Shown: positions 6,001 to 64,000 of the stretch, one piece after another
Position numbering within the stretch: position 1 is the first letter of the stretch
How the letters are laid out: every line of letters begins with the position of its first letter
Assembly: GCA_000004985.1 (NCBI GenBank)
Contig: GG738900.1
DNA from: Naegleria gruberi
Taxonomy: Eukaryota
Length of the DNA stretch: 64,000 bases
Strand: one strand, 5' to 3'
Position numbers and translations under genes: made by a program
Notes under the pieces: generated by a model
What the model was told of the DNA's origin: nothing
Databases searched by the model: none
Seen by the model: the letters and a program-made list of their open reading frames with translations, nothing else

Positions 6001-9000
6001 NNNNNNNNNNNNNNNNNNNNNNNNNNNNNNNNNNNNNNNNNNNNNNNNNNNNNNNNNNNNNNNNNNNNNNNNNNNNNNNNNNNNNNNNNNNNNNNNNNNN
6101 NNNNNNNNNNNNNNNNNNNNNNNNNNNNNNNNNNNNNNNNNNNNNNNNNNNNNNNNNNNNNNNNNNNNNNNNNNNNNNNNNNNNNNNNNNNNNNNNNNNN
6201 NNNNNNNNNNNNNNNNNNNNNNNNNNNNNNNNNNNNNNNNNNNNNNNNNNNNNNNNNNNNNNNNNNNNNNNNNNNNNNNNNNNNNNNNNNNNNNNNNNNN
6301 NNNNNNNNNNNNNNNNNNNNNNNNNNNNNNNNNNNNNNNNNNNNNNNNNNNNNNNNNNNNNNNNNNNNNNNNNNNNNNNNNNNNNNNNNNNNNNNNNNNN
6401 NNNNNNNNNNNNNNNNNNNNNNNNNNNNNNNNNNNNNNNNNNNNNNNNNNNNNNNNNNNNNNNNNNNNNNNNNNNNNNNNNNNNNNNNNNNNNNNNNNNN
6501 NNNNNNNNNNNNNNNNNNNNNNNNNNNNNNNNNNNNNNNNNNNNNNNNNNNNNNNNNNNNNNNNNNNNNNNNNNNNNNNNNNNNNNNNNNNNNNNNNNNN
6601 NNNNNNNNNNNNNNNNNNNNNNNNNNNNNNNNNNNNNNNNNNNNNNNNNNNNNNNNNNNNNNNNNNNNNNNNNNNNNNNNNNNNNNNNNNNNNNNNNNNN
6701 NNNNNNNNNNNNNNNNNNNNNNNNNNNNNNNNNNNNNNNNNNNNNNNNNNNNNNNNNNNNNNNNNNNNNNNNNNNNNNNNNNNNNNNNNNNNNNNNNNNN
6801 NNNNNNNNNNNNNNNNNNNNNNNNNNNNNNNNNNNNNNNNNNNNNNNNNNNNNNNNNNNNNNNNNNNNNNNNNNNNNNNNNNNNNNNNNNNNNNNNNNNN
6901 NNNNNNNNNNNNNNNNNNNNNNNNNNNNNNNNNNNNNNNNNNNNNNNNNNNNNNNNNNNNNNNNNNNNNNNNNNNNNNNNNNNNNNNNNNNNNNNNNNNN
7001 NNNNNNNNNNNNNNNNNNNNNNNNNNNNNNNNNNNNNNNNNNNNNNNNNNNNNNNNNNNNNNNNNNNNNNNNNNNNNNNNNNNNNNNNNNNNNNNNNNNN
7101 NNNNNNNNNNNNNNNNNNNNNNNNNNNNNNNNNNNNNNNNNNNNNNNNNNNNNNNNNNNNNNNNNNNNNNNNNNNNNNNNNNNNNNNNNNNNNNNNNNNN
7201 NNNNNNNNNNNNNNNNNNNNNNNNNNNNNNNNNNNNNNNNNNNNNNNNNNNNNNNNNNNNNNNNNNNNNNNNNNNNNNNNNNNNNNNNNNNNNNNNNNNN
7301 NNNNNNNNNNNNNNNNNNNNNNNNNNNNNNNNNNNNNNNNNNNNNNNNNNNNNNNNNNNNNNNNNNNNNNNNNNNNNNNNNNNNNNNNNNNNNNNNNNNN
7401 NNNNNNNNNNNNNNNNNNNNNNNNNNNNNNNNNNNNNNNNNNNNNNNNNNNNNNNNNNNNNNNNNNNNNNNNNNNNNNNNNNNNNNNNNNNNNNNNNNNN
7501 NNNNNNNNNNNNNNNNNNNNNNNNNNNNNNNNNNNNNNNNNNNNNNNNNNNNNNNNNNNNNNNNNNNNNNNNNNNNNNNNNNNNNNNNNNNNNNNNNNNN
7601 NNNNNNNNNNNNNNNNNNNNNNNNNNNNNNNNNNNNNNNNNNNNNNNNNNNNNNNNNNNNNNNNNNNNNNNNNNNNNNNNNNNNNNNNNNNNNNNNNNNN
7701 NNNNNNNNNNNNNNNNNNNNNNNNNNNNNNNNNNNNNNNNNNNNNNNNNNNNNNNNNNNNNNNNNNNNNNNNNNNNNNNNNNNNNNNNNNNNNNNNNNNN
7801 NNNNNNNNNNNNNNNNNNNNNNNNNNNNNNNNNNNNNNNNNNNNNNNNNNNNNNNNNNNNNNNNNNNNNNNNNNNNNNNNNNNNNNNNNNNNNNNNNNNN
7901 NNNNNNNNNNNNNNNNNNNNNNNNNNNNNNNNNNNNNNNNNNNNNNNNNNNNNNNNNNNNNNNNNNNNNNNNNNNNNNNNNNNNNNNNNNNNNNNNNNNN
8001 NNNNNNNNNNNNNNNNNNNNNNNNNNNNNNNNNNNNNNNNNNNNNNNNNNNNNNNNNNNNNNNNNNNNNNNNNNNNNNNNNNNNNNNNNNNNNNNNNNNN
8101 NNNNNNNNNNNNNNNNNNNNNNNNNNNNNNNNNNNNNNNNNNNNNNNNNNNNNNNNNNNNNNNNNNNNNNNNNNNNNNNNNNNNNNNNNNNNNNNNNNNN
8201 NNNNNNNNNNNNNNNNNNNNNNNNNNNNNNNNNNNNNNNNNNNNNNNNNNNNNNNNNNNNNNNNNNNNNNNNNNNNNNNNNNNNNNNNNNNNNNNNNNNN
8301 NNNNNNNNNNNNNNNNNNNNNNNNNNNNNNNNNNNNNNNNNNNNNNNNNNNNNNNNNNNNNNNNNNNNNNNNNNNNNNNNNNNNNNNNNNNNNNNNNNNN
8401 NNNNNNNNNNNNNNNNNNNNNNNNNNNNNNNNNNNNNNNNNNNNNNNNNNNNNNNNNNNNNNNNNNNNNNNNNNNNNNNNNNNNNNNNNNNNNNNNNNNN
8501 NNNNNNNNNNNNNNNNNNNNNNNNNNNNNNNNNNNNNNNNNNNNNNNNNNNNNNNNNNNNNNNNNNNNNNNNNNNNNNNNNNNNNNNNNNNNNNNNNNNN
8601 NNNNNNNNNNNNNNNNNNNNNNNNNNNNNNNNNNNNNNNNNNNNNNNNNNNNNNNNNNNNNNNNNNNNNNNNNNNNNNNNNNNNNNNNNNNNNNNNNNNN
8701 NNNNNNNNNNNNNNNNNNNNNNNNNNNNNNNNNNNNNNNNNNNNNNNNNNNNNNNNNNNNNNNNNNNNNNNNNNNNNNNNNNNNNNNNNNNNNNNNNNNN
8801 NNNNNNNNNNNNNNNNNNNNNNNNNNNNNNNNNNNNNNNNNNNNNNNNNNNNNNNNNNNNNNNNNNNNNNNNNNNNNNNNNNNNNNNNNNNNNNNNNNNN
8901 NNNNNNNNNNNNNNNNNNNNNNNNNNNNNNNNNNNNNNNNNNNNNNNNNNNNNNNNNNNNNNNNNNNNNNNNNNNNNNNNNNNNNNNNNNNNNNNNNNNN

Positions 9001-11789: not shown

Positions 11790-12188
11790 TTTGAGTACGT
11801 TTTCTTAGTTATTGTTATTATTATTATTAGTATCGTTAATAAAATTAAGCGTTTTTTACGTTTCTACGTTGTTGCGTTTTTTGTTTTTTTGCAAGGGTCC
11901 TTAATTGTTGCACATTCAATCATGGCGGGCACGTATCTATTATTAAACCTAGCCTTATTCATGTGGAGTGTTCTTCATAAGAACCCTTAGATGAAACATG
12001 TTTCCATCTCCTTTTGGACAGCATCTTGTTTTGTTAACCGTTATTACCAAGACTTGGCAGTTGAACAATTTATGGGAATGAATACTAAAATCGGCCACTT
12101 TGATGCCATTTTAATTATTGTGAAATGTCTCTTTTGAATTTTTTATAATATTAATAAATATATGAAATTTAAAACTCATATTTTGTTA

Positions 12189-12362: not shown

Positions 12363-14272
12363 TTGATCAACAGAAAAAATAAAAGCAACACAAAAGAAGA
12401 TTACAACATCATGTTCAACACAAGAGCAACTATTGTTGCTGCTGCTTCTCTAACAAGACTTGTCGTAAAATCCAAAGGTTCATTCTCCAACTCTACCAGA
12501 GCCTCACCAACAAAATTACTATTATTGAATGGAGGTTCTCAACAAACGACCAGTCGATCGGCTACTAATACAACCTCACCTGCGTCATCATCATCATCAT
12601 CGGAACAAACAATTCCATCTTCATGTCCTTATCATCAAAAGGATGCAACTTCCAACAAGGAAGAAGTAAAACCTCAACCATGGACTGAAGTGCCAGGACC
12701 AAAGCCATTGCCACTGATTGGTAATTTGATTCAAGTTCAAACCAATTCTAAAAACATGTCAGAATATTTAATGACACTATGTAAACAATATGGAGATTTA
12801 GTTAAATTGACTGTTTTTAATTTTAACATGTTGATGATTGCTAATCCACATTTATTAGGAGAATTATATAAAAAGGAAGAAAGAAGAAATGAAGTTGACA
12901 GTTTTAGACATTACAAATTGAAGAAGGGTCAAATTCTTACTCCAGTTGAAATGAGATATGATGAAGATTGGTATTCTATTCGTCAGCTTTATAACATTGC
13001 AATGAAACCAGAATATCAAGAAACCATTACACTTCCTCAATTATCTGAATTGAATGGAGACTTCATGAGAAGATTGATTAAGAGTTTGCAATCTGTCAAA
13101 GGAAGTGAAGCATTCAAATATGTCAACAGTTCAGAAACTAATTCAAGATATGCCTTTGATGTTGTCATGAAGGTCTTTCTTGTAAGTTCTATTCCAAAAT
13201 ATTTAAATATTTATATTTTAATACTAATTGAAATAATGTAGGGTGTGAAAATGACAGATGAAGTGACAAGCACTCTTCCATTCGATATTAATGAATTTGT
13301 CAATTATACTGTCCATGCCACTGATGTTGCTGTTAGATTGACAACCAAATTCCCAATGTACAAATATTACAGGACTCAAGAGTATAAAAGTTTTGAAAAT
13401 TTAATGGATAAATCATCAGAATATGCAAGATATTGCATTCAAAGATTCAAAACCAATCCATCTCAAAACGCCAGATTATTAGAATTGATTGAGGAAAGAG
13501 CTAAAGATCAAGATAGACCAGATGAAAGAGTTGAAAGCGTCTTGATGCAATTTTTACAAGGTGGTGTCGATATCACTGTTAGAATTATGAATAATTGCTT
13601 CCATAGATTAGCTCACCATCCTGAATGCCAAGAAAAGATTTATAAGGAATCTGTAGCAGTTTTTGGTGAACCATCATTGGAAGAAGTTACATCTGAAGAT
13701 GGACTTTCTATCAATTTGGAGCAGTACAAAAAGCTCAAGTATACCAAACACTTTATTGATGAGGTATTAAGATTGAATGCATTTGGTTATCTCACCATGG
13801 GAAGAAAATTGGATCAGGATACCGAAATTGGAGGATATATGATTCCAAAGGACACAATGATTCTTGCAATGCAAAGATGGGCAACTCTCAAAGATGAATT
13901 TGTTCCTCGTGGAGAAGAATTCATTCCAGAACGTCATGAAAAGGGTTCTCCATTAGCACCAGTCAATAATTTTGTTTCGCTACCGTAAGTAGTAGTTTGT
14001 TGTGGAATATCCCAATAATTTTCTAATATGAAAGATTTGGAGTTGGAGCTCGTAAGTGTCCTGGTTCACGTGTAGCAACCACAGAACTGCTCATTGGAAT
14101 TATCAATGCTGTCAGACATTTCCAGTTGTGCAACAATAATCTAGCATCATTCCCACCATCTTCTTTTGATCAATCCTTGCTTTATATTGATTCTGAAAAG
14201 TATCCACTTTATTTCACACCAAGAGATCATGTTAAGGAATTTGTAGAAAAGAACTCCAAGGTGTCTCAATAA
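12363..14272 (+). CDS. Cytochrome P450 monooxygenase, 3 exons: join(12363..13181, 13242..13984, 14035..14272). The N-terminus resembles a mitochondrial presequence.
   Basis: The last exon carries the heme-binding motif FGVGARKCPG. The introns are GTAAGT...TAG of 60 and 50 nt and restore the frame. The N-terminus is MFNTRATIVAAASLTRLVVKSKGSF. Confidence 0.85.
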
Positions 14273-30108: not shown

Positions 30109-33100
30109 TTAAATAACCAATTTACTAAACTTGAGGAAGAGTGCTTGTGTTAATGTTCTGGTTTTTTCATTCTTGCTCATAATCATGCTACAGAAGGACA
30201 CGTGGAGGATCTTCCAATGTTTTAGGAATTGTTCATCCTTTAGTTCAGTATATCTTTCCAAGAGAATATCGACAAGATCGTTAAAAGTTGTGAAATAGTA
30301 ATCGGATGGAGATTTCACAATGAGAGAGGAGTATTGTTGGAAGATGGTATTAATGGTGGAAATGAATCCTTCCTCCTTCTCATTGATGGAATGATAAATG
30401 GTAAAGTAGGATTCGAATACAAGTGTCAAGGATTGAATTTCTACATCAATACTGCAGTTTGTAGATTTTTCAACATTGTAGGAATGATAATCAGTATAAC
30501 ATGAGGTGAGACTATCAATCAAATGTTGAACAATAGAGTCAATCTTGTTGTTTTTGAGTAGATAATCCTTGATAGATTTGACAGTCTTGATTACTTCACT
30601 TCTACACAAATTGCTATCTGAAATCTCTCCACATAATGAGTTTACATTTTCTGTTAAAAGATTCTTGATTATTTCACAAACATTCATCCAGCATTCCTCA
30701 GTAAAATTTTCTCCAAACAAGTCAATGAATAAGAGTAAATTTGAACAGCCAACTGTAACTAATTTCAAGCTCTTGAATTCTTTGCTTTCCTTTCTGAAAC
30801 AGGTTGGTAAAATTTCAAAAATGGATTTCAAAGCTGCACTATTATCAGAAAAGTAAGAAGTAAAAGCTGTTATCAATAACTTGATAGAGTCATCACCAAC
30901 TCTTTGTACCCAAACATTATTGGTATTATCATCCTTGAATTGGTCGAATATTGGTAATAAAACTCCTTTGAAAATTACATTCCAATTCTCTTTTGACAAT
31001 TTAGAAGGAAGGGCAGTTTCGAGGAGAGCTGCATGCAAAGCTTTAAATGCTTTAATTTGTACTTCCTCTCTATTATCATTAGAGACAACAGTTGCATAGC
31101 TTGAAAGAATTTGGTACCACTGTCCCAAGAAATCAACCTCCTCCATCTTCTCGCTAGATTTCTGAATGAGTTCAATAGCTTCTACAGACAACTTGCAGGT
31201 TACTTCACTGGCAAATTGACTGAGGCAATTGATCAAGTTACTGAATGCATTATTCTTTTGAACATTTTCAAAATGTTCACCTTCTTGCACAATACAACGA
31301 AGGACATTGAAAGCTTCATTTTCAGTGGCTGCAAAGCCAGCTGTCATGGAGAGCATGCCGAACAATTCCTTCCAACCTGGTTTGATAAATGAAGATCTGA
31401 CAAGCACAATTTGATGAACGGATTGAGTGACTAATTTTCTAACTTCCTTATCCAAACAAGTTTGATAGATACGAGTGAATGGTTGCAAGAATTGTTGTTG
31501 GTAATCAATGATGGACTCTTGTTCTAAAAGTTTCATGCACAACTTGCACAATGAGTCAATACAATAAAGAGCAAGGGTGGTATTCTTGGAGCTGGCAATT
31601 TGTGAAATGAATGGACAAATATGACTCTCCCACAAGGTATCCAAAATGGTATTGATACGGTGCATGTTCAAATACAAGCTCTCAATAACTTTCTTCAAGT
31701 AAAAGATGAGATTGGTACTCTTCTTCTTACACAATCCTTCAATGTAGAAGGTAAGAGATTCCTCACTCAATTTTTCACAATTAAACACAATTCTATCGAC
31801 AATGTCAGGATCTATGGCTTTGAGCATTGGGGTTTTATCGACAGTATCAAAAATGTGCAATCTATCAATTTCTGCAATAATGTCAATGATATCACTCCAG
31901 GCATCTTTGATATTGTTTCCTTCTGTCTCTGCCAATTCTAACAAGAGTTTCAATGCTTCGACATGTCTTGCCCGTAATTGACTCTTGAGTCCAGTGCATT
32001 CAGTAAGACATCCAATCAATGCCTTTCTCAGTGGTGAATCAACATTGAAGGAGCATTTGGTGGCGTTGAGCAAAATCTTTAAAACAAGCTCATGCATCTC
32101 ACCACTCAACTTTTCATTATCGAAAACAGACTTGACCAAATTGATGATGGTTGAACTGAAGGATTCCAACATTAAGCTAATAATTGTATTATGTCCAAAA
32201 TCTTCTTCAATGATGAATGGTTCTGATGTGTACTTTTTCATGGACTTTATAATTCCTTGCTCTACAGCATCAATTTCAGCATCTGCCTCATCAAATATGG
32301 CCAAAGTATCTTCACTTAATTTGATTTCATTATCTTGCAAGTTTTTGTAAACTCTTTCCTGATATTCTCTGCTAATGCAACTAGCATCAGTGAGACTATT
32401 TCTCTCAACGAACGACTCTACAGTAGAATTACAAAGGGCCTTCATGGCAGCATTGTGTATTTCTGTATTGAGCATGACTACAGAAATGGTAAACACAAAG
32501 CAAGCTGATGGATTTTTAAATTCAGTTTCCAGCAAATCTGGGTTATCATTCTGATACTTTTCAGCAAAACATTCAATTACTCTGTTAATTTCTTGACTTT
32601 CCTTTGGAAGCATGAATAGATCAAGAGTTTTTCTGAGAGCCTTTTCAAATAAAATTCCAGAAAATGATTGCATATCAATGTACTTTTTCAAAACACCAAA
32701 ATTCTTTGGAGAAGCAAAATATTCACCAACTTTGTGTTTAGAAAATCCTGGTATAGTATTGAACAATGTTGCAAGTTCCAATTCATATTGAGTGATATCC
32801 AATGACTTGTCTGGTAGGCGCCCAATCTGGTGGAAATATTCCAATCCCTTCTTGAGATTTTCATTGAATAATTCAACACCCCTTTTGAGCTTTTTTCTTT
32901 CTGTAAGTGTTGTGTTTGGTTTGATGTTTTCTTTTTCTTTAACATTAACCAAAGAGCCAAGCATGGAATTGAAAATGGTCAAGGCAGATTTTTTGATAGC
33001 CATAGTTTGATTGACATCGTTTTGAATGGTATATTCTTGAACCATCCAAACAAGGGCATTCATTAATCTTTCCAAAATATTTCTCTTTTCAACCTTACAA

Positions 33101-34517
33101 TCAAAATTTACATATAATCTCATAATCAATTCGCCATTTGAGGTAATATTCTTCAAGAATGAAAGTACAAGATTCTTGAATGTTGGACTGAGGGTCTTAC
33201 TCTTGATCATTCTAATCAAATTGAAGAAGAGAATGTAAATTTCATATTGCATTTCTGCGAGGAAATTTTCCATTAATAATTGATAGAGACCCAATGCTGA
33301 AAGTACTATTTGAGTAGATTTACAATGCACCAAGTTAATTAATAATGTTTGGCAAACAATGGATTTGACTTGTTCAAAAACTCTTTGATGAGAGAGTAAC
33401 TTTCTTCCACAATTCTTAAAGACATCTGTTAATAAGTCAATATAGGTCAATTTTGCCTTTTCATCAAATGGGCTATTCCATCATAAATTAAAGTATTAGA
33501 TTTGATATTATTGAAATAAAAAACTCACCCATTTGTAAAATCTTTAGAAACTGATGCAGAAAGATATTTAAAAACAAGAATGGCATCTCTTTGTTTTTGA
33601 GTAAGTTCAGTCAATTCCTTATGAGTGTGACGATCTTCATCCTTTACATCTGAACCAGTTTCATTGGCAAATTCCAAAAGCATTGCATCAACCAAATCAC
33701 TGATATGAGCAATTGGATTCTCAGCTCCTTCATCCATTCTATTAATCACCATATGAAGTACTTGTTTCAAAACAGAGAAGGTATTAGTTTCATTCTTTGA
33801 AACAAAGTGAACACTCAAACAAACTTTAACTCCAATCAACAAACTCTTTCCACTCAAATGACATGAACTAATTGCAGTAAGAATAGTTTTCAAAAATTGC
33901 AATTGCAAACTTTCATCCTGATTAGAAATATCAACACATTCAGAGAGAGTTCTCATCATGACATCGGTAATCAACAAGTTTTCATCAAATTTTGTATAAA
34001 AATTGATATAATTCTTTTCCATGAATTGTTGTAATAAATCCAAGGCAATCATGATAATATTTGCTTGTTTTGTTTTACAACTCAAATTCAATACTTTAAA
34101 GTACATGTTCGGATTTTGAATTAAATCTCGTTCTACTTCAAAGTTATTCTCACAAACTTTCAAATGTTCTATTAATTTTCAATATTCCATATTCATTGTT
34201 ATTGTTGATGATGGTAATGATGATTTGAAATTCCGTAATATATTAAATAAATGATTATTTAAATATAATATTATTAATCAATGAAGATATAATAAATACA
34301 AACCAACTACTAATACACAAGCATCCTTCAACTCGATCAATTTCCGATTATTACCAACAAATTGCAAAATATTCTCAAATGATTGACGAATCGTTCCCTG
34401 TGGAGAGGAAACAGAGTTTGGAGAGGACATTAAACCTGAAAGTCTATTACTACTACCTCCTAAGGAAGTGGGACTGTTGATGGTGTTGGACACCATTGCA
34501 CGAAAGCTGGTGAACAT
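30109..34517 (-). CDS. Large Sec7-domain ARF guanine-nucleotide exchange factor (BIG/GBF1-like), at least 3 exons (about 34517-34300, 34170-33525, 33471-30109), ~1400 aa
   Basis: Sec7 motif ...LDLFMLPKESQEINRVIECFAEKYQNDNP... and long helical DCB/HUS/HDS-like flanks. Exon 2 to 3 join is phase 2: ..TNG|GTGAGT … AATAG|C. The exon 1/2 junction is not resolved and coordinates are ±1 nt. Confidence 0.7.
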
Positions 34518-36430: not shown

Positions 36431-37702
36431 TCAGTACCTGTCATAGGACCTTCGCTGATAAACAATTTCACCTGTTTTCTTGGTATATTTTATGGCATCA
36501 ATGTACGAAGAGGATGGTGCAATAATGTACAAGTACTTTAAATTATTTAAAACTTCACTTTCAGCAATTGCCTGTCTTCCTTCATATCCAAACAAATTAC
36601 AAGATACATCCAGATAGGTCAGATTTGTCATATTTTGACTTTTGGCAAGTGAATTGATACCTCGAAATCCTAAACAATTTACAGATAGGTCAAGAAATGT
36701 CAAATTTTTCACATAAGAGGAAGAACTCAACTCTATTAGGTCCTCTTCCTTCACTCCTGAAGAACTCAAATTCAAATAGGTCAAATTCTTCATTGAAGAG
36801 CTATTGGATATTGCTTTCAAAATTCTGGTTAGCATTGTTTTGTTGTTGGCAAAGTTCAAACTTGTTAATTTGGCCAAACATGCAACGAATTTTGCAACAT
36901 CACTGGAGAGATTAACATCAGTTGGATTAGTGCAATACATCCACTTTAAGGTGAGGTGAGTAAGATTTGTAAATCTGCTTAGTAATTTCAAAACTGGACC
37001 AGAAAATTCACTTCCAGAAAGATTTAACTTTCTCAAACTGTGATTCAAGGTTTCATTGGCTGCTATTAATTCAACATGCTGCAAACTAAAGCTATTCATT
37101 GATAAATCCAAACATGTCAATTGTGATTTACATTCCGATATTTGTTGAATGATGGAAGGTGAATGTAAATTGTTGCATCTCAAATGTAATTCCTTTAATT
37201 TTGTAAAATATTCCAACTCTAACATTTCAATATCATTGTCATTTAAGTTCAACACTCTAATCTTTTTTTCATGACCTTTCAGAAAAGATGTTGATCTAAT
37301 ATTTTGTGATTCCAAGTGCCATTCTTCCACATTCTCAAAAGCTCCACAGTTAAATAATGCAGCAACACCTTCAGAATTTAATCTCTCTTGGGAAGGTAGC
37401 TCCTGTCCATATAATTTTACAATTTTCAAATTTTCAAAAGGTTTTGTAATTTTTTGTAAAGCTACTCCAACTCTATTTGATGTATAACCACACACCAATG
37501 AATGTGATGATGATAAACATGTATTAAACCATCGTCTGCATTCCATCCACCGATCGATCATTAATCTGGAGCTAAACTTTAACTGTCTCACCTCTATGCA
37601 TTCATGCCAACATCTACAGACCGCTGTAAAGTGAATAATTTCATACTGATCACAAAATTCCATGATCAGATTGATGAGCTCTGCTGGGAGATGTTGTGCC
37701 AT
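36431..37702 (-). CDS. F-box / leucine-rich-repeat (RNI-like) protein, 423 aa
   Basis: N-terminus LPAELINLIMEFCD (F-box) followed by LxxLxLxxN LRRs (LNLSGS, LTYLNLSSSGV, LTFLDLSVNCLG). Confidence 0.7.
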   Translation of the reverse strand: MAQHLPAELINLIMEFCDQYEIIHFTAVCRCWHECIEVRQLKFSSRLMIDRWMECRRWFNTCLSSSHSLVCGYTSNRVGVALQKITKPFENLKIVKLYGQELPSQERLNSEGVAALFNCGAFENVEEWHLESQNIRSTSFLKGHEKKIRVLNLNDNDIEMLELEYFTKLKELHLRCNNLHSPSIIQQISECKSQLTCLDLSMNSFSLQHVELIAANETLNHSLRKLNLSGSEFSGPVLKLLSRFTNLTHLTLKWMYCTNPTDVNLSSDVAKFVACLAKLTSLNFANNKTMLTRILKAISNSSSMKNLTYLNLSSSGVKEEDLIELSSSSYVKNLTFLDLSVNCLGFRGINSLAKSQNMTNLTYLDVSCNLFGYEGRQAIAESEVLNNLKYLYIIAPSSSYIDAIKYTKKTGEIVYQRRSYDRY

Positions 37703-47817: not shown

Positions 47818-48957
47818 TTACTTTTCTTCTTCTTCAATATCTTCAACAATGGTAACAGGTTCAGGTAAAGAAGTTGTCAATTTAGGATCAATATTTTCAA
47901 CAGCCTTCATGATAGTTTCAACATTTTCAGCAGCTTCTGTAGAAAAGAGAACTCTAGCCCACATTTCTCGTCCTTCTGGTGAGAAGGCTTCTTCCAAAGA
48001 TTCTAAACTAGCATAAAGAGTATGCATATCATTAGCAGCGGATTCAGTCATGTATTTAGCAAATGTTCCCTTTCCGTTTGCTTGTTCATATTCTTCAACT
48101 TGCTTTTCAAGTTGCTTTAAAGCAATCAATTCATGCATAAATGGACCAATTGGTTCAGCATCAGGGTCCAAACGAGAATCATATGTCAAACTATGGATAC
48201 TTTGGAAAGTTGTACCTTCTGGATCAATGATTCTATCAATAATTCTTGATGAGTCATCAGACATTGTTGATGTCATATCCTTTACATCGCTCTTCTTAGC
48301 TTCGGAAGCTGGAAGACTATTAGCCAAATCAGTGAAAGCAGAAGAGAAGGCCACTCGGGAATTAATTTCATCTCTTTGGGCACTTTCCAAATCATCCTTC
48401 TTGATTAAATACTTCTTATACTCTTGAATATCCTTTTGGTAATCCATATCAATTTTTTGCATTTGTTGAAGAACCTTCTTGAACATGTATTGGTTTTCAT
48501 CATCCTCTTGCAATTGTGTTAAATCTTGTTTGATTTCGCTTCTTTTAGTAGCGTATTGTGTAGGTTTAGAGAAGGTTTCAGCCTTTGGTAAATTATCATG
48601 TGAAATTTGATATAAACTCTTCTCATAGTATTTGTGAATGTGGTTATGTTTACGAGCATCCTCAATAGCACCCAAAATTTGATTTTGTAATTTCTTAATA
48701 TCAATTTGGTCCTTTCCAATCATTGGTACTTCGCTTTTATCGAGTTGTAACTTTATATCGTATTTTCCAGAGTAAAAAGCAGTTGCGGCTCCATTTCTAC
48801 CAACAGCTTCAAGAGAAGACAATTTGCTATAATAGCTAAATTGGTTCCAAACTTTAGATGGAAATCCCTTCATTTGCTCTGGGATGTTCAACATTTTGGC
48901 CACCAAATTCTTTGCCTTTCTTCCGGTTCTAATGTATGACTGTGGGACAACGTTCAT
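47818..48957 (-). CDS. Hypothetical protein, 379 aa
   Basis: Continuous ORF with ATG at 48957 and an acidic C-terminus. No family recognised by eye. Confidence 0.5.
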   Translation of the reverse strand: MNVVPQSYIRTGRKAKNLVAKMLNIPEQMKGFPSKVWNQFSYYSKLSSLEAVGRNGAATAFYSGKYDIKLQLDKSEVPMIGKDQIDIKKLQNQILGAIEDARKHNHIHKYYEKSLYQISHDNLPKAETFSKPTQYATKRSEIKQDLTQLQEDDENQYMFKKVLQQMQKIDMDYQKDIQEYKKYLIKKDDLESAQRDEINSRVAFSSAFTDLANSLPASEAKKSDVKDMTSTMSDDSSRIIDRIIDPEGTTFQSIHSLTYDSRLDPDAEPIGPFMHELIALKQLEKQVEEYEQANGKGTFAKYMTESAANDMHTLYASLESLEEAFSPEGREMWARVLFSTEAAENVETIMKAVENIDPKLTTSLPEPVTIVEDIEEEEK

Positions 48958-53671: not shown

Positions 53672-56239
53672 TTAAACTCCCTTTCTTGGTTTTAATGTGA
53701 ACTTTAAGGCAATGTAAGCAATGATTCTCATTCCAACTGAGATACCCAAAACTATTCCCAAATTAACCCAAGTATTCATCAGGCCATTGTTCATTCCATA
53801 ATAATCGAGAATAAAGTCGAGATTTGGATATGGACACGATTCGTCTTGATCAGTTGGACAGTCTATTGTTCTTCCACCAAATTCATTTACAATGAGAGCT
53901 TTAAATCCATAATTGAATGGTGAAAAGTAGGTGAACCAAGCCAAGTAAACTGGAATTTGATCGATATTTCTATAAAATCCAGAAAAGACATGGAAAGTTG
54001 TTGAAATGGGAGGTAAAAGCATGGTGGCAATTTCTACACGCCTCACTAGAATGGCCAAAACCATTCCAAAACTATGAGCTGCCTGTGAAAGTACCAAAAT
54101 AATCAAAATGAACATTAAAAATCTATCAATAGTTAAGGTCAATCCTGCCAACAAGTAAACTATCGTTCCAAAAAACACTGGATGAGGAATAATCAACAAC
54201 ATATCCGCAAAGAACTTTCCAAAATAATAACTACTTATTGAAAAACATTTAGCACCTCGTTCTCTTAAAAAGTACAATCTCTCTCCTCTGAAAATTGAGA
54301 TTGGAGTACCAAATGAATTCGACCACTGATTAGTAACCACAAAGAAGAGCAAACCAAGCTTATTCTGAACTGAATTTTGATCATTCTTTGTCTGAAAGTA
54401 AATAAATCCAACTAAAATTGCATAAATAATTTGTTGAATAACTCGAATTTTTGTAAATTTGAAATCTCTGTACTGATTGAGGAAACTTCTTAAAAACATG
54501 ACAAGGAATTGAGTCCACCATGTTGATTTCTCCACTTTTGGTAAAGTACATTCTCGTAATTCGAAAGTGTCATGCACAGATGGAATAATCTGTTGCTTAA
54601 TCTTTTCAAAACTGTCAACAATCTTATTAATCCTTTCCATTTCACTTTCATGTGTCTTTTCATGAGCAAATATAGCATGTGAATCCTCTGTTATCATATC
54701 CATCACAAAATCTGCTGGATTGTAATTGTCATTCATTGCAAAACCAATCTTTTTAAAATACTTTACAACTTTGCTAGTTGATCCAAAGTATGCAATTTTA
54801 CCACTTGCTAACAGGAGTAAATTATCCAGATAATCCAAAATATCAGATCTAGGTTGGTGAATTGTCATAATCACTGTAATATTATGAGTTTTGGCAACGT
54901 GTGAAATTGTTTGAACCACGTCGAGGGCTGTCTTTGAATCAAGGGATGTACTTGGTTCGTCTAGAATCAAAATTGGAGGATTGGTGAGTAGAGCAATCGC
55001 AATGCCCAATCTCTTTCTTTCACCTCCACTAATTCCTTTGGAAAGTCCAACTTCACCAATTAAGGTATCAGCACACTTTTCCAATTTGAGTAATTGAAGA
55101 ACGTAATCAACTTTTTTCATCTTTTCTTGATAAGAAGTCGTTGAAGGAAGTTTCAACATGGCAGAATATCGTAAAGTTTCTCTAACTGTCAAATTTCCCA
55201 TCAATAAATCATCTTGATAGACATATCCCACTAATGATTTCAATCTATTTTTCACAACCATTCCATTTATAATAATTTCACCACTCGTACATTTCGTCTG
55301 TCCAGCTAAAATATTTAAAAGTGAAGTTTTTCCTGCTCCACTAGGTGCCTAAATTAATTTCCAAAATTGGTAATATAACATTTACACTCTCTCCAACAAT
55401 TCAAATCATTTCCAACTTACCATGATAGCCAATATCGATCCTGGATATGCAATACCATCAATTCCATTCAAAATTTGAATAAATTTACTTGGTTTTTCCA
55501 TTTTTGAATCGCCTTCCTTTTTTAAACTTTTTGAAATGATATCATTGAGGAAACTAGTTTCTCTTTTGACCTGATAACAAATATTTCTCCATGAAATAAT
55601 TGCTCCAGTTTCATGTTTTTCATTTTTCCAATCTTGGAATTGATCCAGATAAATTTCACTATACGAAACTACGTCCGATTTACGAAATGAACCTTTTGTG
55701 GGAGAAACTAGCTTTTTCACAACATCTACTAAAGTTTCTGTTGGAGTTTTTGCGGAATCTTTTGAATTCATCTTTCGAATAGAATAAGACGAACCAGTTT
55801 TCTTCATTGAATGTTCCTCAATTTGTTTTTCATGTGTTCGAATGATTTTTGACAAATCCAGAGATATGTTATAATCATCTTCCACTAGAATGTGAGTTTC
55901 GTCTGAAGAAGTTGAAGAATTCGGTGAAGGAATCTCAATATTCGAAAGACTATTCGAATAGTAAACTTTGTGATGATTATCAACATTATTATCAATGGCA
56001 TATAATAAATTTGGCGTATTCGGTGATATTTCATAAATTTCTGGCGTTCCAAAATTTACAGTTTTCGTCTTGGTATGCTCCCGAGCTGTTGTTGGTATTT
56101 CTAATGTTTGTTTAGTTTCGTTTTGTTTCGTTTCATCCAATATGATGATGTTTTCTTCGTCTGCATGTACGATTGCTGTACGTCGACGAGTCATGGATGA
56201 TTGCTCCACATCTCGCCTTGTATTTGAAGATTCGTCCAT
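53672..56239 (-). CDS. ABC transporter, G-family half-transporter (NBD-TMD), 2 exons: complement(join(53672..55348, 55421..56239)), ~831 aa with a Ser/Thr-rich N-terminal extension
   Basis: …ISWRNICYQVK…GSILAIM|GTAAGT…TAG|APSGAGKTSLLNILAG (Walker A split by a 72-nt intron). ABC signature ISGGERKRLGIA, Walker B ILILDEPSTSLD, and six C-terminal TM helices. Confidence 0.8.
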
Positions 56240-58715: not shown

Positions 58716-59915
58716 ATGTCGACCAATCAGCCACAAATTGTCATTAAGGAAGTTAGTACTGGAAAGGACTATATGACATTATTAACCATGGATGGTCGAT
58801 TGTTGTTTATGGGACAAAATACATTTGCATTGGGTTCTGTATTGAGTGGAGAAAAGCTTCCTGATTATGTAACATGTCTGGAGGAGGCTTGTGTAAAGGT
58901 AGTCAGTGGGAGAGGTGATAATGGTGTAGGAGAAACCTTTTTAGAATTGGGTAAGAAGGAGACGAGGAATTTTCTTCATGTTGGAAGTGGAATGTACTTT
59001 ATGGTAGTTCTTACGTCAGATTATAGATTGATTTCTTCTGGATCTAATGAGTGTGGACAGACAGGTGTTGGTCAAAATGCTAGTAGCATGGGAGGTTTTT
59101 CTGAATGTGTTTTCAATAAGGATTTACAAGATTCAAAGAATGAAATATTGAGAGGAATTGTTAAAATTGCATGTGGATACCAACATTGTATGATATTGAC
59201 TAGAGATGGAACAATGATTGGAACTGGGTGTTCCTACCAACGTCAATTAGGTCCAATTGAAAATGATATATCCTATGAATTTACAAAATTAGTATCTCCT
59301 GAAACGACTACTCCAATAGTAGATATTCAATGTGGATACTTTAGTAGTTCATGTATTGACGCTAATGGAATGGTATATGTAGTTGGACAAGAGAGTTACA
59401 CTCGACTCGTCGCTGCAGAGAAATGGACCAAATTACAAACTTTTATTTATGATCCAGTTCAATACATGACAATGAGTTGTTCCAATTCATTCTTTCGAAC
59501 AACAAGTGGATTAGTCTATCACAATTGGGGAAGTAATGATGACAATGAAAACAAACCATTTGAGAATTTGCAAAAATTAAGTGAGATACCTAATGTGGAA
59601 TATATATTTGGAAAGGAAAATTTCTTAGCTGTAACGGAATCTAAGGATATCTATCTCTCCACAAACTCTTCTTGTTCTGGAATTATTAAACCACCAACAT
59701 CTGATACTCGTTGGTTTGAATACAATGGCCTCAAACAACACATTCCTAAAAATGGAAGATATCAACTATTCATCGCCGATGCATTCAGCTTTTACATGTA
59801 CTTTATTCTATCCTCCAATAAGGAAGGTCACTTGAAGGATAATCTGAAAATTACACTCCAAAAAGGACAAACAGATTTTGAAAAGAATTATTTCATGGAC
59901 ATTATCATCAAGTAG
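58716..59915 (+). CDS. RCC1-repeat (beta-propeller) protein, ~400 aa; ATG at 58716
   Basis: Repeated …ACGYQHCMILTRDGTMIGTGCSYQRQLG… / …SSGSNECGQTGVG… motifs typical of RCC1 blades. Confidence 0.6.
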   Translation: MSTNQPQIVIKEVSTGKDYMTLLTMDGRLLFMGQNTFALGSVLSGEKLPDYVTCLEEACVKVVSGRGDNGVGETFLELGKKETRNFLHVGSGMYFMVVLTSDYRLISSGSNECGQTGVGQNASSMGGFSECVFNKDLQDSKNEILRGIVKIACGYQHCMILTRDGTMIGTGCSYQRQLGPIENDISYEFTKLVSPETTTPIVDIQCGYFSSSCIDANGMVYVVGQESYTRLVAAEKWTKLQTFIYDPVQYMTMSCSNSFFRTTSGLVYHNWGSNDDNENKPFENLQKLSEIPNVEYIFGKENFLAVTESKDIYLSTNSSCSGIIKPPTSDTRWFEYNGLKQHIPKNGRYQLFIADAFSFYMYFILSSNKEGHLKDNLKITLQKGQTDFEKNYFMDIIIK

Positions 59916-60120
59916 TAATCATACGAATTATTATACTTGTAAATATTAAACTTGTTAAAGATCATCCTTCACCATATATGATTACTACTACTTCAAAACC
60001 AAGTACAGACCTCATGACCATATACCATCACATTTACAAATAAATTCAGTGAAAATCCTGCAACTGTAACTCTTTAAAAAAAAACGGCGCACTATTTTTT
60101 GTGAATATTTTAAAAAAAAA

Positions 60121-60946
60121 ATGAAAAATTCCTTTACTGCCTCCGTCGTGATGACCATTTTCATGGTTGTTGTGTTGATGAGTTTATTGGCGCTTGATGT
60201 TGTTGAAGGTATTATGGAATCTCGTGTTCGTTTAATTGACTCCAACTCACAATTAAATCGTTTCCTCTTCCGTGGTAATACTCCAATTGAACATGGAAAT
60301 TTTGCGATTGGAAAGTTGAGAGATTTAGTCAGAGAGGTTGGAAAGAATAATAATGTTCAAGTGCCTGATGAATTCTATTTGATTGATGTATCATTCTTGA
60401 ATATGTTTGAAGAAGATTTGAAGGATGAAACAGAATATTTCAAAGCTAATCCACATATTGGTGAATTGGTTCATTGGACTATTATTGGTAATCCAATCAA
60501 TGGTACTGATTTACCTGAATGGTTGAGAAAGGATCTTGCTATTTATGAAAAGAAATGGGATAGAGAAGATAAATTGATCGATAGAGTCGATCAGCTCTAT
60601 AACTGGATTCACACTCAAGATAGCATTCATAATTTGAATCAAGATGCTCAATCTGCCAAAGCTTTGGTTTTCTACATCCATTGTGAGGCTGGAATGGATA
60701 GGTATGTAGAGTTTCATATTATTTAAAGTTGTTAACAAGTGGAATAGAACTGGTGAAGTTTCAGGTTCATATTATTTAAAGTATAACAAGTGGACATATA
60801 TGCAGACTTTGGAATATGATTATCATGTCGAAAATAGACCAATTGAGTTCATGTCACAAAATGCATTGAACTGGTTCTGTTGGCATCAATTTTACACTCT
60901 TGGTTATCCAACTGATTGTAACTTGTCACCAAGCAGAAACAAATGA
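60121..60946 (+). CDS. Secreted protein-tyrosine-phosphatase-like enzyme (Y_phosphatase3-type HCxxGxxRTG P-loop), 2 exons: join(60121..60701, 60748..60946)
   Basis: Signal peptide MKNSFTASVVMTIFMVVVLMSLLALDVVEG. The P-loop VFYIHCEAGMDR|TGE is completed only after removing a 46-nt GTATGT…ATAG intron (phase 2). Confidence 0.65.
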
Positions 60947-60989
60947 ATTTAATTTTTTGTGTCAATTTTGTTTATTAATATGAGGAGGA

Positions 60990-61610
60990 TTATTCAAGAC
61001 TTTGAATCAGATCATAATGTTGTTTCTTTTCATCGTAGGATAACCAAACTTCCTTATTCACATTTTTCACATGTTCTGGATTGACTTCAATCACTTCAGA
61101 TTGAATAATCTTCCCAGAGACAATCAAAATTCTAAAGGCAACATTCGGATACACTCTACTAGCTGCCACAACACTTGTAAAATCACCAAAAGTTCCACTC
61201 TTACTCAAACTATTCAAATATTCATCAAAACTTTGTCCTTCCTCAACAAATAGAGCATGTTTCAACTCTAATCCATCAATTTTAGTTTCCAAATTATTTC
61301 GCATCCAACCAACAATTTCCTCTCTCAATTTTTGATGATTCTTTCCATTATTAATTCCTTTCGAAAGACTATCATAGAGACAATTGCCATCCGATACGGA
61401 GGGAATAATTTTGAAATGATCAGTTAGTAATTTTCCTCGGAGTGATGATGATGATGAAATATTGTTATCAGCAAAAGAAAATCTTGATGCAGAGAAATTA
61501 CGCAAATAATTAATTTTTCTATTATTACTTGAAAAATTGGTGAATTGTTTTCTGCTTATAGATTTAATCATTTTTTTTTGATTTTTAAAAATTGTAATGG
61601 AATTGAGCAT
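60990..61610 (-). CDS. OTU-domain cysteine protease (deubiquitinase-like), 206 aa, with an N-terminal presequence-like region
   Basis: IPSVSDGNCLYDSLS (catalytic Cys box) … HYDLI (His box). The N-terminus is MIKSISRKQFTNFSSNNRKINYLRNFSASRFS. Confidence 0.7.
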   Translation of the reverse strand: MLNSITIFKNQKKMIKSISRKQFTNFSSNNRKINYLRNFSASRFSFADNNISSSSSLRGKLLTDHFKIIPSVSDGNCLYDSLSKGINNGKNHQKLREEIVGWMRNNLETKIDGLELKHALFVEEGQSFDEYLNSLSKSGTFGDFTSVVAASRVYPNVAFRILIVSGKIIQSEVIEVNPEHVKNVNKEVWLSYDEKKQHYDLIQSLE

Positions 61611-61650
61611 ATTTGGTAATTGTTAATAAATTGTTAATAATAAATTCATT

Positions 61651-63320
61651 TTACTGTATTCCAGCAAGTTGTTTCAATGTAGCATCATTGATTCCCTCCT
61701 TTCGAATATCTTCTCTGCATTTCATATCGGTGGCTGATAAGTTCCATAAGGATTTGGCTGCGAATGAGCTCACTTGCTTATCCTTTCCATTGGCAAATCG
61801 AATTAGTTGTGGAACAATTGCATGAGAGAGGAGAATCTTTTGATTTTCTGCATTCTTGGTCATGTTAAATAAGGCAGCATTATACGATTCCAAATTTGGT
61901 TGTGGAATTGGACATGGAGATTTGGAAAACCATTCAGCAATGAGTTTTACAAAACCACTCTCTCTAAATGCCTCAATATTTTCTCTCATATTGGTCAATT
62001 TGACCAACAAACTTGTGGCCATATTGAAACAAGATGGTTTTTGAGAGGCAATGCTAATTTCATCTCTCAAAAAATTGGTCAAAATAATTAAACCTCCCTT
62101 AGATTGTGAAAATTCGAGGCACATTTCTGGACTAGCATAGCATAGGGAAACTACTGAGGAGAGGACATGTTCGAGAGCTGTCTTGTTTTTTGAAGAGAAC
62201 TTTTTGAAGGCCGACACCAAATTGGACATGATGAATGTGTGTTCGTGGAGTTGAGCGGAAATTTCTGGATTTTGGACAATGTTTCCAACTGCTCCTGCAG
62301 CACTTTGAGCAATTGAATCAACTGCATGAGTGAGGAAATTGCTTACCACTTTCAATGCCCTAACAAGTTGAATTTCAGAACATTGTCCCTTCTTTTCACA
62401 TACAAATGAGAGTGACATTAGACAGTTAGCAAGTCATTCATTATTTTCACTGTTTGGATTCTCTAAAACGGAAACCATCTTTTCCACAAATCCTTCCTTT
62501 ACCAATAATTTCTGAATGGAACCACTCTCATCATCACTGACAATTAAATTGTAAACACAAAAGACAGTTTTCGATCTGATTTGTTCCAATTGTGTTAAAT
62601 CTATTTGTTTCACTAAAATCCTGAGAAGTGATTGATCATTGGCTGAGTTTTGTAATTTCTGAGCCATGTATTTTCCAGTGGTTGCACTTGTAGAGCTAGT
62701 TGTGGTGGAATTTGAACTTGCTTTTACAATTTTTGTAATAAATGTTGGTTCCAAACTCAGGAATGAAATCAGTGATAACACATTTCGTTTCATTTCTTCT
62801 GTAAATTTGGCATCTTTCAATATTTCTGAAAAAACTTTGATTGAATTTTCCTGATTGACCATTTCTTTTCGTATTGAGGCATCATTATCCTCACATAAAT
62901 TAACCAATGCACCAATTCCATACTCTATAATCGCCAACTCACTTGAATGATTCTCCAAAACCTTGAAAATCATTGAAATTCCACTCTTAATTTCATTTCT
63001 ACATTTATCCAACGTTGCCAAATTCAGTAAAATTCCCAAAACATTCTTTACAATTCTCTTATCATTCTGTTGATCATTTAATAATGAAATTATTATCGGA
63101 ATCCCTCCCAATCTATGAATTTCAAACAAATTGGCATCTTCACTTGTCATGTTAAAAACATCTCCAATGGCGGACAATTTAACTAACGAATTTCCTGTTT
63201 TGATCTTGTTCAATAATTGACCTAAATCTTGTGGTTGGGAAGGAGTAGCTTGTGCTGTGAAAAGTTGGTGTTGTGATCTAATAAAACCGCACAGAAAAAG
63301 TACCTACTCATGTTTGACAT
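61651..63320 (-). CDS. Armadillo/HEAT-repeat protein. Structure is complement(join(61651..62418, [in-frame TGA at 62434-62436], 62437..63254, 63308..63320)). A tiny first exon (MSNM) is spliced via a 53-nt GTAGGT…CAG intron.
   Basis: Two long same-frame ORFs (259 aa + 255 aa) are separated by a single TGA. Repeat-helical ARM-like sequence runs throughout. The in-frame region upstream of 63213 has no ATG; the donor at 63307 and acceptor at 63255 restore a start. Confidence 0.55.
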
Positions 63321-63498
63321 TTTTTTTTAATATTTATTTTGAATAGTGACATGACAACCATTACAAATCATCACATTATTGACTTCCTTTTAGAGACATT
63401 ATGCAGTAGTATTTACAGTTTTTCACCTTCACAATTCTTCATCATTTTCAACTTCCTTACAAAATTTTAAATATTGAATTTAATCTTTACAAAAAAAA

Positions 63499-64000
63499 AT
63501 GTCTCAACATCAAGATGATGAATTTACAGAACAAGATACCGTTCCGGATTGCTCTTTAGAATCCCTCTCCATTGTCTTTAATTATGATCAATTAATAAAA
63601 GATCGGAGTAAGATGCACAAAATAACCAGAAAATCAAACTCTAAATTTAATAATAATAATAATCGTGATGATCATGATGATCGTGATGATAACAATTCGA
63701 GTAATGGAGAGAATCATTCTGATGAAACGTACTATGTTGGTGCTTCCAATAATTTTGTTCGTGTTTTTACGTTGAATGGAAGAAAATACTGGATAGCCCA
63801 AGCCTTGTGTTATCATAGAGCACCCGATATGAAGATTCACTTCTCTGTAAAGAGGAAGGATGTCCCGAAGGCTTTTAATGTGATTGGAAAGTACTTTTTC
63901 GAGAGTGGTATGAAATTTGGAATGAAATCTATAATGATTGATGAAGAGACTGAGGTGAAGAGCAAGAATTCTGGAAAGTTGGATTTGAATTGGAATACGG
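63499..64000 (+). CDS. 5' part of an unidentified protein-coding gene (runs off the window end)
   Basis: ATG at 63499. It encodes MSQHQDDEFTEQDTVPDCSLESLSIVFNYDQLIKDRSKMHKITRKS…RDDHDDRDDNN…WIAQALCYHRAPDMKIHF…. It is open to the window end and divergent from the ARM gene (178 bp apart). Confidence 0.45.
   Translation, partial: MSQHQDDEFTEQDTVPDCSLESLSIVFNYDQLIKDRSKMHKITRKSNSKFNNNNNRDDHDDRDDNNSSNGENHSDETYYVGASNNFVRVFTLNGRKYWIAQALCYHRAPDMKIHFSVKRKDVPKAFNVIGKYFFESGMKFGMKSIMIDEETEVKSKNSGKLDLNWNT

What the first reader, a model, noticed from the sequence alone, without database searches (positions are those of the whole stretch)
62419..62436. Single in-frame TGA splits an Armadillo-repeat gene into two same-frame ORFs
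ORFs at 62434-63213 and 61651-62418 are in the same frame and separated only by TGA plus 12 nt (…SENNE*LANCL MSLSFV…). Every GT/AG combination around the stop gives an intron length that is not a multiple of 3, so no canonical intron can remove it. Candidates are a sequencing or assembly error, a very recent nonsense mutation giving a pseudogene or truncated product, or stop-codon readthrough.
Basis: seen in the sequence. Interest (0 to 1): 0.5.

Follow-up and report, generated by a model that had tools for sequence, protein, structure and literature searches.

The report
Premature stop in Naegleria Armadillo gene
One copy of an Armadillo-repeat gene in the draft genome of the amoeba Naegleria gruberi carries a single-base premature stop codon where a near-identical second copy in the same assembly has cysteine, so this is an ordinary nonsense variant or base-call error that also made annotators split the gene in two.

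Summary
The core observation holds. On the minus strand an in-frame TGA (62434-62436) separates two long same-frame ORFs. The window is Naegleria gruberi NEG-M (312-kb scaffold), where the locus is annotated as two 'predicted proteins', NAEGRDRAFT_72865 and _72864. Both ORFs are halves of one gene. Single-chain homologues align collinearly over both, and a confident AlphaFold model gives one continuous beta-catenin-like ARM solenoid. The stop lies in a loop inside one repeat, and the downstream ATG lies mid-helix.

The decisive result is a second N. gruberi copy on a 15-kb scaffold (NAEGRDRAFT_76406). It is 334/338 identical, uninterrupted, and has Cys (TGT/TGC) where the window has TGA, a one-base third-position difference. 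More distant homologues have Thr/Leu/Val.

Other explanations fail:
- TGA is not reassigned: 0 in-frame TGAs in the window's other long ORFs.
- No SECIS was found.
- No stimulatory RNA structure follows the stop.
- No intron-like donor could remove it.

Most likely this is a recent nonsense variant in one of two alleles or young duplicates (about 0.6). A consensus error in the low-coverage draft is the main rival (about 0.27). Ordinary; low interest.

The parts
63308..63320 (-). Proposed first exon (ATGTCAAACATGA; Met-Ser-Asn-Met + 1 nt) of the ARM gene; inferred, not annotated
   Evidence: The main ORF has no ATG before Met 'MTSED' and is preceded by an in-frame TAG, yet homologues align to residues upstream of that Met. 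Splicing 63308|63254 restores the frame.
63255..63307 (-). Proposed 53-nt 5' intron (GTAGGT…TTTTCACAG); inferred
   Evidence: Its size and ends resemble the local verified-looking introns of 56-72 nt with GTRAGT…AG. It holds the only GTA[AG]G upstream of the stop in the gene region.
62437..63254 (-). Coding sequence upstream of the stop: N-terminal half of the ARM solenoid, including a low-complexity insert (SSNSTTTSSTSATT) modelled as disordered. Annotated in part as NAEGRDRAFT_72865 (238 aa, from Met at 63150).
   Evidence: Pfam Arm PF00514 E=1.6e-7. P0001 is 100% identical. Model residues 170-193 have pLDDT<50 and the rest are helical repeats.
62434..62436 (-). Premature in-frame TGA (codon 278 of the reconstructed 538-codon gene), followed by C (TGA-C)
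   Evidence: The near-identical copy P0138 has Cys here. Other homologues have T/T/L/V.
62419..62433 (-). Five codons (LANCL) between the stop and the first downstream ATG; these are coding sequence of the same repeat, not an intergenic spacer
   Evidence: Identical to P0138 residues 79-83. Aligned to 'xxNCxMxLS' of the family consensus. Start of helix 262-273 in the model.
61654..62418 (-). Coding sequence downstream of the stop: C-terminal half of the ARM solenoid, intact, with no further stops or frameshifts. Annotated in part as NAEGRDRAFT_72864 (192 aa, from an internal Met).
   Evidence: Pfam Arm / ARM_ARMC5 hits. P0002 is 100% identical. Only one amino-acid difference from P0138 downstream of the stop.
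61651..61653 (-). Normal TAA terminator of the gene; the next gene (OTU protease) starts 40 nt downstream on the same strand
62524..62526 (-). Codon AGT (Ser) that differs from the second copy (Gly); a one-base difference
62467..62469 (-). Codon GTT (Val) that differs from the second copy (Ile); a one-base difference
62254..62256 (-). Codon GCT (Ala) that differs from the second copy (Thr); a one-base difference

Best explanation
The locus is one roughly 538-codon gene for a beta-catenin-like Armadillo-repeat protein of a Heterolobosea-restricted family, in Naegleria gruberi NEG-M. In the copy on this 312-kb scaffold, a Cys codon (TGT/TGC) has become TGA through a single third-position substitution. 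That creates a premature stop at codon 278, in the loop between the second and third helix of a mid-protein ARM repeat. The same genome assembly holds a 99%-identical copy on a 15-kb scaffold (NAEGRDRAFT_76406), which keeps Cys and is uninterrupted across this point. The most likely reading is therefore a real and very recent nonsense variant in one of two alleles of this heterozygous diploid, or in one of two very young duplicates. Its loss would be masked by the intact copy.

Shown: the single-gene architecture, the position of the stop within the fold, and the Cys in the twin. Inferred: that the A is real rather than a base-call error; that the two copies are alleles; and that the TGA copy yields only a truncated product of about 277 residues or an unstable mRNA. 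A secondary consequence is an annotation artefact, because gene callers split the locus into two fragment models (NAEGRDRAFT_72865 and _72864).
For: The TGA is in frame between two ARM-containing ORFs. The organism and existing split models were identified from 100%-identical P0001 and P0002. Homologues P0004, P0003, P0016, P0057 and P0005 align collinearly across both ORFs. The AlphaFold model (pLDDT 87, pTM 0.82) is a continuous solenoid with the stop at residue 260, between helices 242-251 and 262-273, and the downstream Met inside a helix. Foldseek matches the whole 12-repeat beta-catenin ARM domain over about 500-540 columns. P0138 spans the site with Cys and is 334/338 identical, and all four differences are one-base changes, so the TGA is one of several point differences between two distinct copies. 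There is no further decay downstream, only 1 missense in 260 codons, which fits a recent event. Naegleria is described as a mainly heterozygous diploid (PMC9928731). TGA behaves as a stop elsewhere: there is no in-frame TGA in the other long ORFs, against 99 TGG.
Against: No reads, traces or transcripts could be inspected, so a consensus error cannot be excluded. This is a draft scaffold with a 4.9-kb N gap. The neighbouring genes (OTU P0146, NAEGRDRAFT_72862, RCC1-like _52488) have no annotated twin on the 15-kb scaffold. The allelic relationship is therefore unproven, and the second copy could be a partial duplicate. The 76406 model lacks the N-terminal ~200 residues for unknown reasons. The DNA of the second scaffold could not be retrieved, so synonymous divergence and the exact codon (TGT or TGC) are unknown.
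Confidence: 0.6

Rival explanations
1. Base-call or consensus error. The genome really has TGT/TGC (Cys) at this codon on this scaffold too, and the A at the third position is an artefact of a low-coverage draft assembly in which two near-identical copies were assembled separately.
For: The difference from the intact copy is a single base. The reading frame downstream is completely undamaged and the last 192 residues are identical to the twin. The window is a draft scaffold with a 4.9-kb N gap. No independent assembly of this site exists in the collections searched.
Against: Three other one-base, amino-acid-changing differences lie within 300 nt either side. The two sequences are therefore genuinely different copies, and true differences between them outnumber expected consensus errors. 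Only about 4-5% of random single-base errors in coding sequence create a stop. This is my rough estimate and was not computed from read data.
Confidence: 0.27
2. The TGA is decoded. This would be either programmed or leaky stop-codon readthrough (near-cognate Trp/Cys/Arg insertion at UGA-C) or selenocysteine insertion, so that a full-length ARM protein is made from this copy.
For: The stop is TGA followed by C, which from general knowledge of eukaryotic termination is the leakiest tetranucleotide. The twin has Cys at the site, the classic counterpart of Sec and one of the near-cognate readthrough products. N. gruberi has Sec machinery (SPS2; PMC4561486).
Against: No SECIS-family hit on either strand in 59000-64000, even at E<=10, and only 40 nt separate the gene's TAA from the next gene's ATG. 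No stable structure lies downstream of the stop (z = +0.83 versus shuffles). The aligned column is variable (C/T/T/L/V) and sits in a surface loop of a scaffold protein, not at a redox site. No homologue conserves a stop here.
Confidence: 0.04
3. Gene fission. The two ORFs are now two independent functional genes, as the current annotation (NAEGRDRAFT_72865 and _72864) implies.
For: Both ORFs are long and have ATG codons, and public annotation lists them as separate proteins.
Against: The stop falls inside one ARM repeat, and the first downstream ATG is in the middle of the repeat's third helix. Only 15 nt separate them, leaving no room for a promoter in a monocistronic eukaryote. The annotated 72864 model starts arbitrarily 69 codons further down. 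All relatives, including the 99%-identical twin, are single chains.
Confidence: 0.03
4. An intron (canonical or non-canonical) removes the stop from the mRNA.
Against: Introns seen in this window have GTAAGT/GTGAGT donors, lengths of 56-72 nt and T-rich…AG acceptors. The ARM gene has no GTA[AG]G between its 5' intron and the stop. The candidate donors are GTTTTA, GTTTCC, GTGGAA and GTGAAA, with purine-rich acceptors (GAAAAG, AAGAAG). Every candidate would delete >=26 codons that are coding in the twin and aligned in homologues and that form helices of the solenoid.
Confidence: 0.02
5. A variant genetic code in which TGA is a sense codon (Trp or Cys).
For: Allowing TGA as sense lengthens many ORFs in the window. 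The twin has Cys at this site.
Against: The lengthened ORFs are off-frame or antisense to real genes. The genuine long ORFs (1429, 856, 854, 693, 1128 aa and others) contain no in-frame TGA, against 99 TGG codons, and ORFs such as 36431-37702 terminate at TGA within a few codons of the next stop.
Confidence: 0.005

Closest known systems
Heterozygous nonsense allele / young (unitary-type) pseudogene copy with an intact counterpart
   Same: A single disabling point mutation (TGY to TGA) in an otherwise intact reading frame. A 99%-identical intact copy is present in the same genome, and there is no secondary decay.
   Different: Whether the two copies are alleles or recent duplicates is unresolved. 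Whether the base is real is untested. Nothing is known about expression or nonsense-mediated decay.
Beta-catenin / importin-alpha type Armadillo-repeat domain proteins
   Same: Pfam Arm repeats in both halves. The predicted continuous right-handed alpha-solenoid superposes on the 12-repeat beta-catenin ARM domain (TM about 0.6 over 500-540 columns).
   Different: Only about 15% sequence identity. It belongs to a Heterolobosea-restricted family (N. gruberi NAEGRDRAFT_81203; the N-terminal domains of N. lovaniensis C9374_005652 and of the Acrasis kona 'armadillo repeat-containing kinesin-like protein') with no known function. It also carries a disordered Ser/Thr-rich insert.
Eukaryotic selenoprotein genes (UGA-Sec with a Cys homologue)
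   Same: In-frame UGA, a Cys in a close homologue at the same position, and an organism with Sec machinery.
   Different: No SECIS element and almost no 3' UTR space. The position is not conserved and not catalytic. The protein family is a structural scaffold.
Programmed stop-codon readthrough (e.g. UGA-CUAG genes of animals)
   Same: UGA followed by C(U).
   Different: The full CUAG motif is absent (CUUG). There is no downstream RNA structure, and no relative conserves the stop. All of them have sense codons.

Membership tests
Armadillo-repeat (ARM) protein | Tandem ~42-residue repeats matching the Arm profile | tested here: met
   PF00514 in the N half (E=1.6e-7, above the curated cut-off) and in the C half (E=2.1e-5, above the cut-off)
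Armadillo-repeat (ARM) protein | Three-helix repeats stacked into one continuous alpha-solenoid | tested here: met
   AlphaFold model with pLDDT 87 and pTM 0.82, all-helical repeats. Foldseek top hits are designed ARM proteins and the beta-catenin ARM domain, probability 1.00.
Nonsense allele / young pseudogene copy | Disabling mutation inside a region that is coding in relatives | tested here: met
   TGA at the codon aligned to C/T/T/L/V in homologues, with collinear homology on both sides
Nonsense allele / young pseudogene copy | Intact counterpart in the same genome or species | tested here: met
   P0138 = NAEGRDRAFT_76406, 334/338 identical, Cys at the site
Nonsense allele / young pseudogene copy | The variant base is real (present in reads), with allelic or paralogous status defined by flanking synteny | not testable with these tools
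   No reads were available and the second scaffold's DNA could not be obtained. Neighbouring genes show no annotated twin.
Selenoprotein gene | SECIS element in the 3' UTR | tested here: not met
   No SECIS family hit in 59000-64000 at E<=10. 40 nt to the next gene.
Selenoprotein gene | Sec position aligned to a conserved (catalytic) Cys in homologues | tested here: not met
   Column is C/T/T/L/V, with a gap in one sequence. The position is a loop preceding a helix.
Selenoprotein gene | Organism encodes the Sec machinery | tested here: met
   From the literature only: SPS2 and Sec machinery reported for N. gruberi (PMC4561486)
Programmed stop-codon readthrough | Leaky stop context | tested here: inconclusive
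   TGA-C is present, but the extended CUAG motif is not (TGA CTT G). The link between context and efficiency rests on general knowledge from other eukaryotes and is untested in Naegleria.
Programmed stop-codon readthrough | Stimulatory downstream RNA structure and/or evolutionary conservation of the stop | tested here: not met
   Fold z-score +0.83. No homologue has a stop here.
Variant nuclear genetic code (UGA sense) | In-frame TGA recurrent in conserved genes, and TGA not used as a terminator | tested here: not met
   No in-frame TGA in the other long ORFs. TGA-terminated ORFs are present.
Stop-containing spliceosomal intron | GTRAGT-like donor, T-rich…AG acceptor, local size range (56-72 nt), and sequence not coding in relatives | tested here: not met
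   compared with real introns. The region is coding in P0138 and in homologues.

The most novel reading that the evidence does not exclude
The TGA copy is translated through: UGA-C is decoded at a useful level by near-cognate tRNA (Cys/Trp/Arg) or by SECIS-independent Sec insertion. The TGA/TGY pair would then be a natural recoding polymorphism producing full-length ARM protein from both copies in a heterolobosean.
Probability: 0.03. Interest if true: 0.55.

Novelty: already known. Interest (0 to 1): 0.1.

Why it matters
The practical value is curation. NAEGRDRAFT_72865 and NAEGRDRAFT_72864 are fragments of one disrupted gene and should be merged and flagged as a nonsense allele, pseudogene or possible error. 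NAEGRDRAFT_76406 is the intact but N-terminally truncated model of the same protein. If the base is real, it is one more example of a masked loss-of-function variant in a clonally propagated heterozygous laboratory amoeba, which is expected biology. It has no bearing on any open question about genetic codes or recoding unless the low-probability readthrough reading were shown experimentally.

Tried and rejected
1. Variant code (TGA = Trp/Cys, as in heterotrich ciliates or Blastocrithidia). This was my first suspicion, from the AT-rich, intron-poor sequence and the ARM consensus. I rejected it because the real long ORFs have no in-frame TGA.

2. Tandem duplicate genes. The two halves share only repeat-level similarity (34% over 65 aa), and there is no paralogue elsewhere in the window.

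3. The word-indexed homology search with the full joined protein returned nothing, probably swamped by the low-complexity insert. The exhaustive HMMER search was what found the relatives. A second word-indexed search around the junction recovered only P0001.

4. Exact-protein contig look-ups for four products gave 'not on record', so the DNA of the second scaffold could not be obtained.

5. Synteny test of the 15-kb scaffold through twins of neighbouring genes found no twins, leaving allele versus paralogue unresolved.

6. A metagenome DNA pattern scan and a related-loci scan both came back empty.

7. Literature. The Fritz-Laylin 2010 genome paper and the 2011 review are not held. No paper mentions these gene IDs. 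The other hits were uninformative.

9. A 26-nt alternative for the 5' intron is frame-compatible, but I consider it too short compared with the local introns.

Full report
**1. What is in the sequence**

On the minus strand the frame reads …VLENPNSENNE-TGA-LANCLMSLSFVCEKK…. The TGA occupies 62434-62436. ORF 62434-63213 lies upstream of it, and ORF 61651-62418 starts at the first ATG downstream.

Across the whole window, only two pairs of >=100-codon same-frame ORFs are separated by a single stop. The other pair, split by TAG at 13239-13241, lies in a cytochrome P450 gene. That stop is simply the last three bases of a textbook 60-nt intron, GTAAGT…TGTAG (13182-13241). The TGA case is therefore the only unexplained interruption in the window.

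**2. Source and context**

- The window has about 33% GC, holds a 4.9-kb run of N (4291-9235), and is densely packed with mostly intron-poor eukaryotic genes. These include SSRP1, Tudor-SN, a BIG/Sec7 GEF, a serpin, an ABCG transporter, an RCC1-like protein and an OTU protease.
- An exhaustive HMMER search with the joined protein found two 100%-identical fragments, P0001 (238 aa) and P0002 (192 aa).
- Cluster look-up identifies them as 'predicted proteins' NAEGRDRAFT_72865 and NAEGRDRAFT_72864 of Naegleria gruberi NEG-M, on a 312,004-bp scaffold. Neighbouring genes confirm the source.
- The public annotation therefore already treats the locus as two genes. One starts at an internal Met and ends at the TGA. 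The other starts 69 codons after the TGA.

**3. It is one gene**

- Both halves carry Arm repeats. They are not duplicates of each other, since they share only repeat-level similarity.
- Single-chain relatives align collinearly over both ORFs from end to end. These are P0004 (468 aa, ENA), the N-terminal ~490 residues of N. lovaniensis C9374_005652 (P0003), Acrasis kona KAL0478580 (P0016), P0057, and the N. gruberi paralogue NAEGRDRAFT_81203 (P0005).
- An AlphaFold model of the joined sequence built on this alignment is confident (mean pLDDT 87, pTM 0.82). It is a continuous helical solenoid apart from a disordered Ser/Thr-rich insert at residues 170-193.
- In the model the stop is residue 260, in the loop between helix 242-251 and helix 262-273 of one repeat. 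The Met that opens the downstream ORF (residue 266) lies in the middle of that last helix.
- Foldseek aligns the model with the whole 12-repeat beta-catenin ARM domain over about 500-540 columns (TM about 0.6, probability 1.0).
- Two independent genes separated by 15 nt, with the boundary inside a repeat, is not credible.

**4. The decisive comparison**

- P0002's 90% cluster contains a second N. gruberi protein, P0138 = NAEGRDRAFT_76406 (EFC35931.1, 338 aa), encoded on a different, 15,192-bp scaffold.
- P0138 runs uninterrupted through the junction, …ENPNSENNE-C-LANCLMSLSF…, and is 334/338 identical to the window's translation.
- The four differences are all one-base changes: AGT(S)/G, GTT(V)/I, TGA(*)/C and GCT(A)/T.
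- The window's TGA therefore differs from a Cys codon (TGT/TGC) only at the third position.
- More distant homologues have Thr, Thr, Leu and Val in that column. The stop is derived, and the position is not a conserved Cys.

**5. Alternatives tested**

*(a) Variant code.* Treating TGA as sense lengthens many ORFs, but these are off-frame or antisense. The genuine long ORFs contain no in-frame TGA, against 99 TGG, and TGA terminates ORFs such as 36431-37702. Some apparent TGA 'terminators' are really inside intron donors, for example GTGAGT at 33528 and the ABC intron.

194 frame-preserving GT/GC…AG intervals span the stop, the shortest being 78 nt. However:
- Real introns here have GTAAGT or GTGAGT donors, lengths of 56-72 nt and T-rich…AG acceptors.
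- The ARM gene has no GTA[AG]G between its 5' end and the stop.
- Every candidate would delete at least 26 codons that are coding in the twin and helical in the model.

*(c) Selenocysteine.* N. gruberi has the machinery (PMC4561486). Against this, no SECIS model hits 59000-64000 even at E<=10, the 3' spacer to the next gene is 40 nt, and the column is variable and in a loop.

*(d) Programmed readthrough.* The context TGA-C is leaky (general knowledge). There is no downstream structure (z = +0.83), and no relative conserves the stop.

**6. What remains open**

I could not obtain reads, transcripts or the DNA of the second scaffold.

The adjacent genes have no annotated twin on the small scaffold. 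This applies to the OTU gene 40 nt downstream, NAEGRDRAFT_72862 and the RCC1-like gene. I therefore cannot say whether the two copies are alleles of a heterozygous diploid or a recent, possibly partial, duplication. Naegleria is described as a heterozygous diploid in PMC9928731.

I also cannot exclude a consensus error. My weighting is real variant about 0.6 and error about 0.27. It rests on two points:
- The TGA is one of four closely spaced single-base, amino-acid-changing differences between two clearly distinct copies.
- Only a few percent of random base errors create stops.

This is an estimate, not a measurement.

**7. Mechanism, as far as can be said**

- Shown: a TGY-to-TGA third-position difference creates a premature stop at codon 278 of a 538-codon ARM gene, and an intact near-identical copy exists.
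- Inferred: the TGA copy gives at most a ~277-residue N-terminal fragment (about 6 repeats) or an unstable mRNA, and the intact copy supplies function. Trace amounts of full-length protein through basal UGA-C readthrough are possible but unsupported.

**8. Gene structure note**

The annotated start (Met 'MTSED') lies inside the region conserved with homologues, and the ORF has no upstream ATG. A 13-nt first exon (63320-63308) plus a 53-nt intron (63307-63255, GTAGGT…CAG) restores an ATG-initiated 538-codon frame. This is inferred only.

**9. Verdict**

The answer is ordinary: a nonsense variant, or possibly a base-call error, in one of two near-identical copies, compounded by a split annotation. 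Interest is low.

Noticed in passing
window 12363-13988 (+), intron 13182-13241: The only other same-frame ORF pair split by one stop (TAG 13239-13241) is a cytochrome P450 gene. The stop is the last three bases of an in-frame 60-nt intron, GTAAGT…TGTAG. It served as a positive control for what a stop-removing intron looks like here.
   Followed up: yes
window 63255-63320 (-): The ARM gene seems to need an unannotated 13-nt first exon plus a 53-nt intron (GTAGGT…TTTTCACAG) to obtain an ATG. The public model starts at an internal Met inside conserved sequence.
   Followed up: partly
window 3-4289 and 9237-11804 (-), N run 4291-9235: Two very long ORFs full of teneurin-type EGF repeats flank the 4,945-bp assembly gap on the same strand. 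They are probably one giant EGF-repeat gene broken by the gap, in which case the repeats would have defeated the assembler.
   Followed up: no
window 53672-56239 (-), intron 55349-55420: The ABCG-type transporter is split into two ORFs by a 72-nt GTAAGT…TTTAG intron just before the Walker A motif. The upstream ORF's apparent TGA 'terminator' lies inside that intron.
   Followed up: partly
window 30109-34163 (-), intron about 33473-33528: The DCB-domain ORF (33525-34163) and the Sec7/HUS/HDS ORF (30109-33450) are one BIG/GBF-type ARF-GEF gene joined by a 56-nt GTGAGT…ATAG intron. The TGA that ends the upstream ORF is part of the donor site.
   Followed up: partly
clusters of window 60121-60726 (+) and 47818-48957 (-): Proteins >=90% identical to two neighbouring N. 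gruberi genes occur on short contigs from other sources: ENA (P0142, 1,418-bp contig) and Logan (P0145, 988-bp contig). Independent sequence data from N. gruberi or a very close relative therefore exist publicly and might cover the TGA site.
   Followed up: no
window 62661-62720 (-), residues ~170-193 of the model: A Ser/Thr/Asn-rich low-complexity insert (SSNSTTTSSTSATTGK…) interrupts the ARM solenoid. It is absent from all homologues and modelled as disordered. It probably also swamped the first word-indexed homology search.
   Followed up: partly
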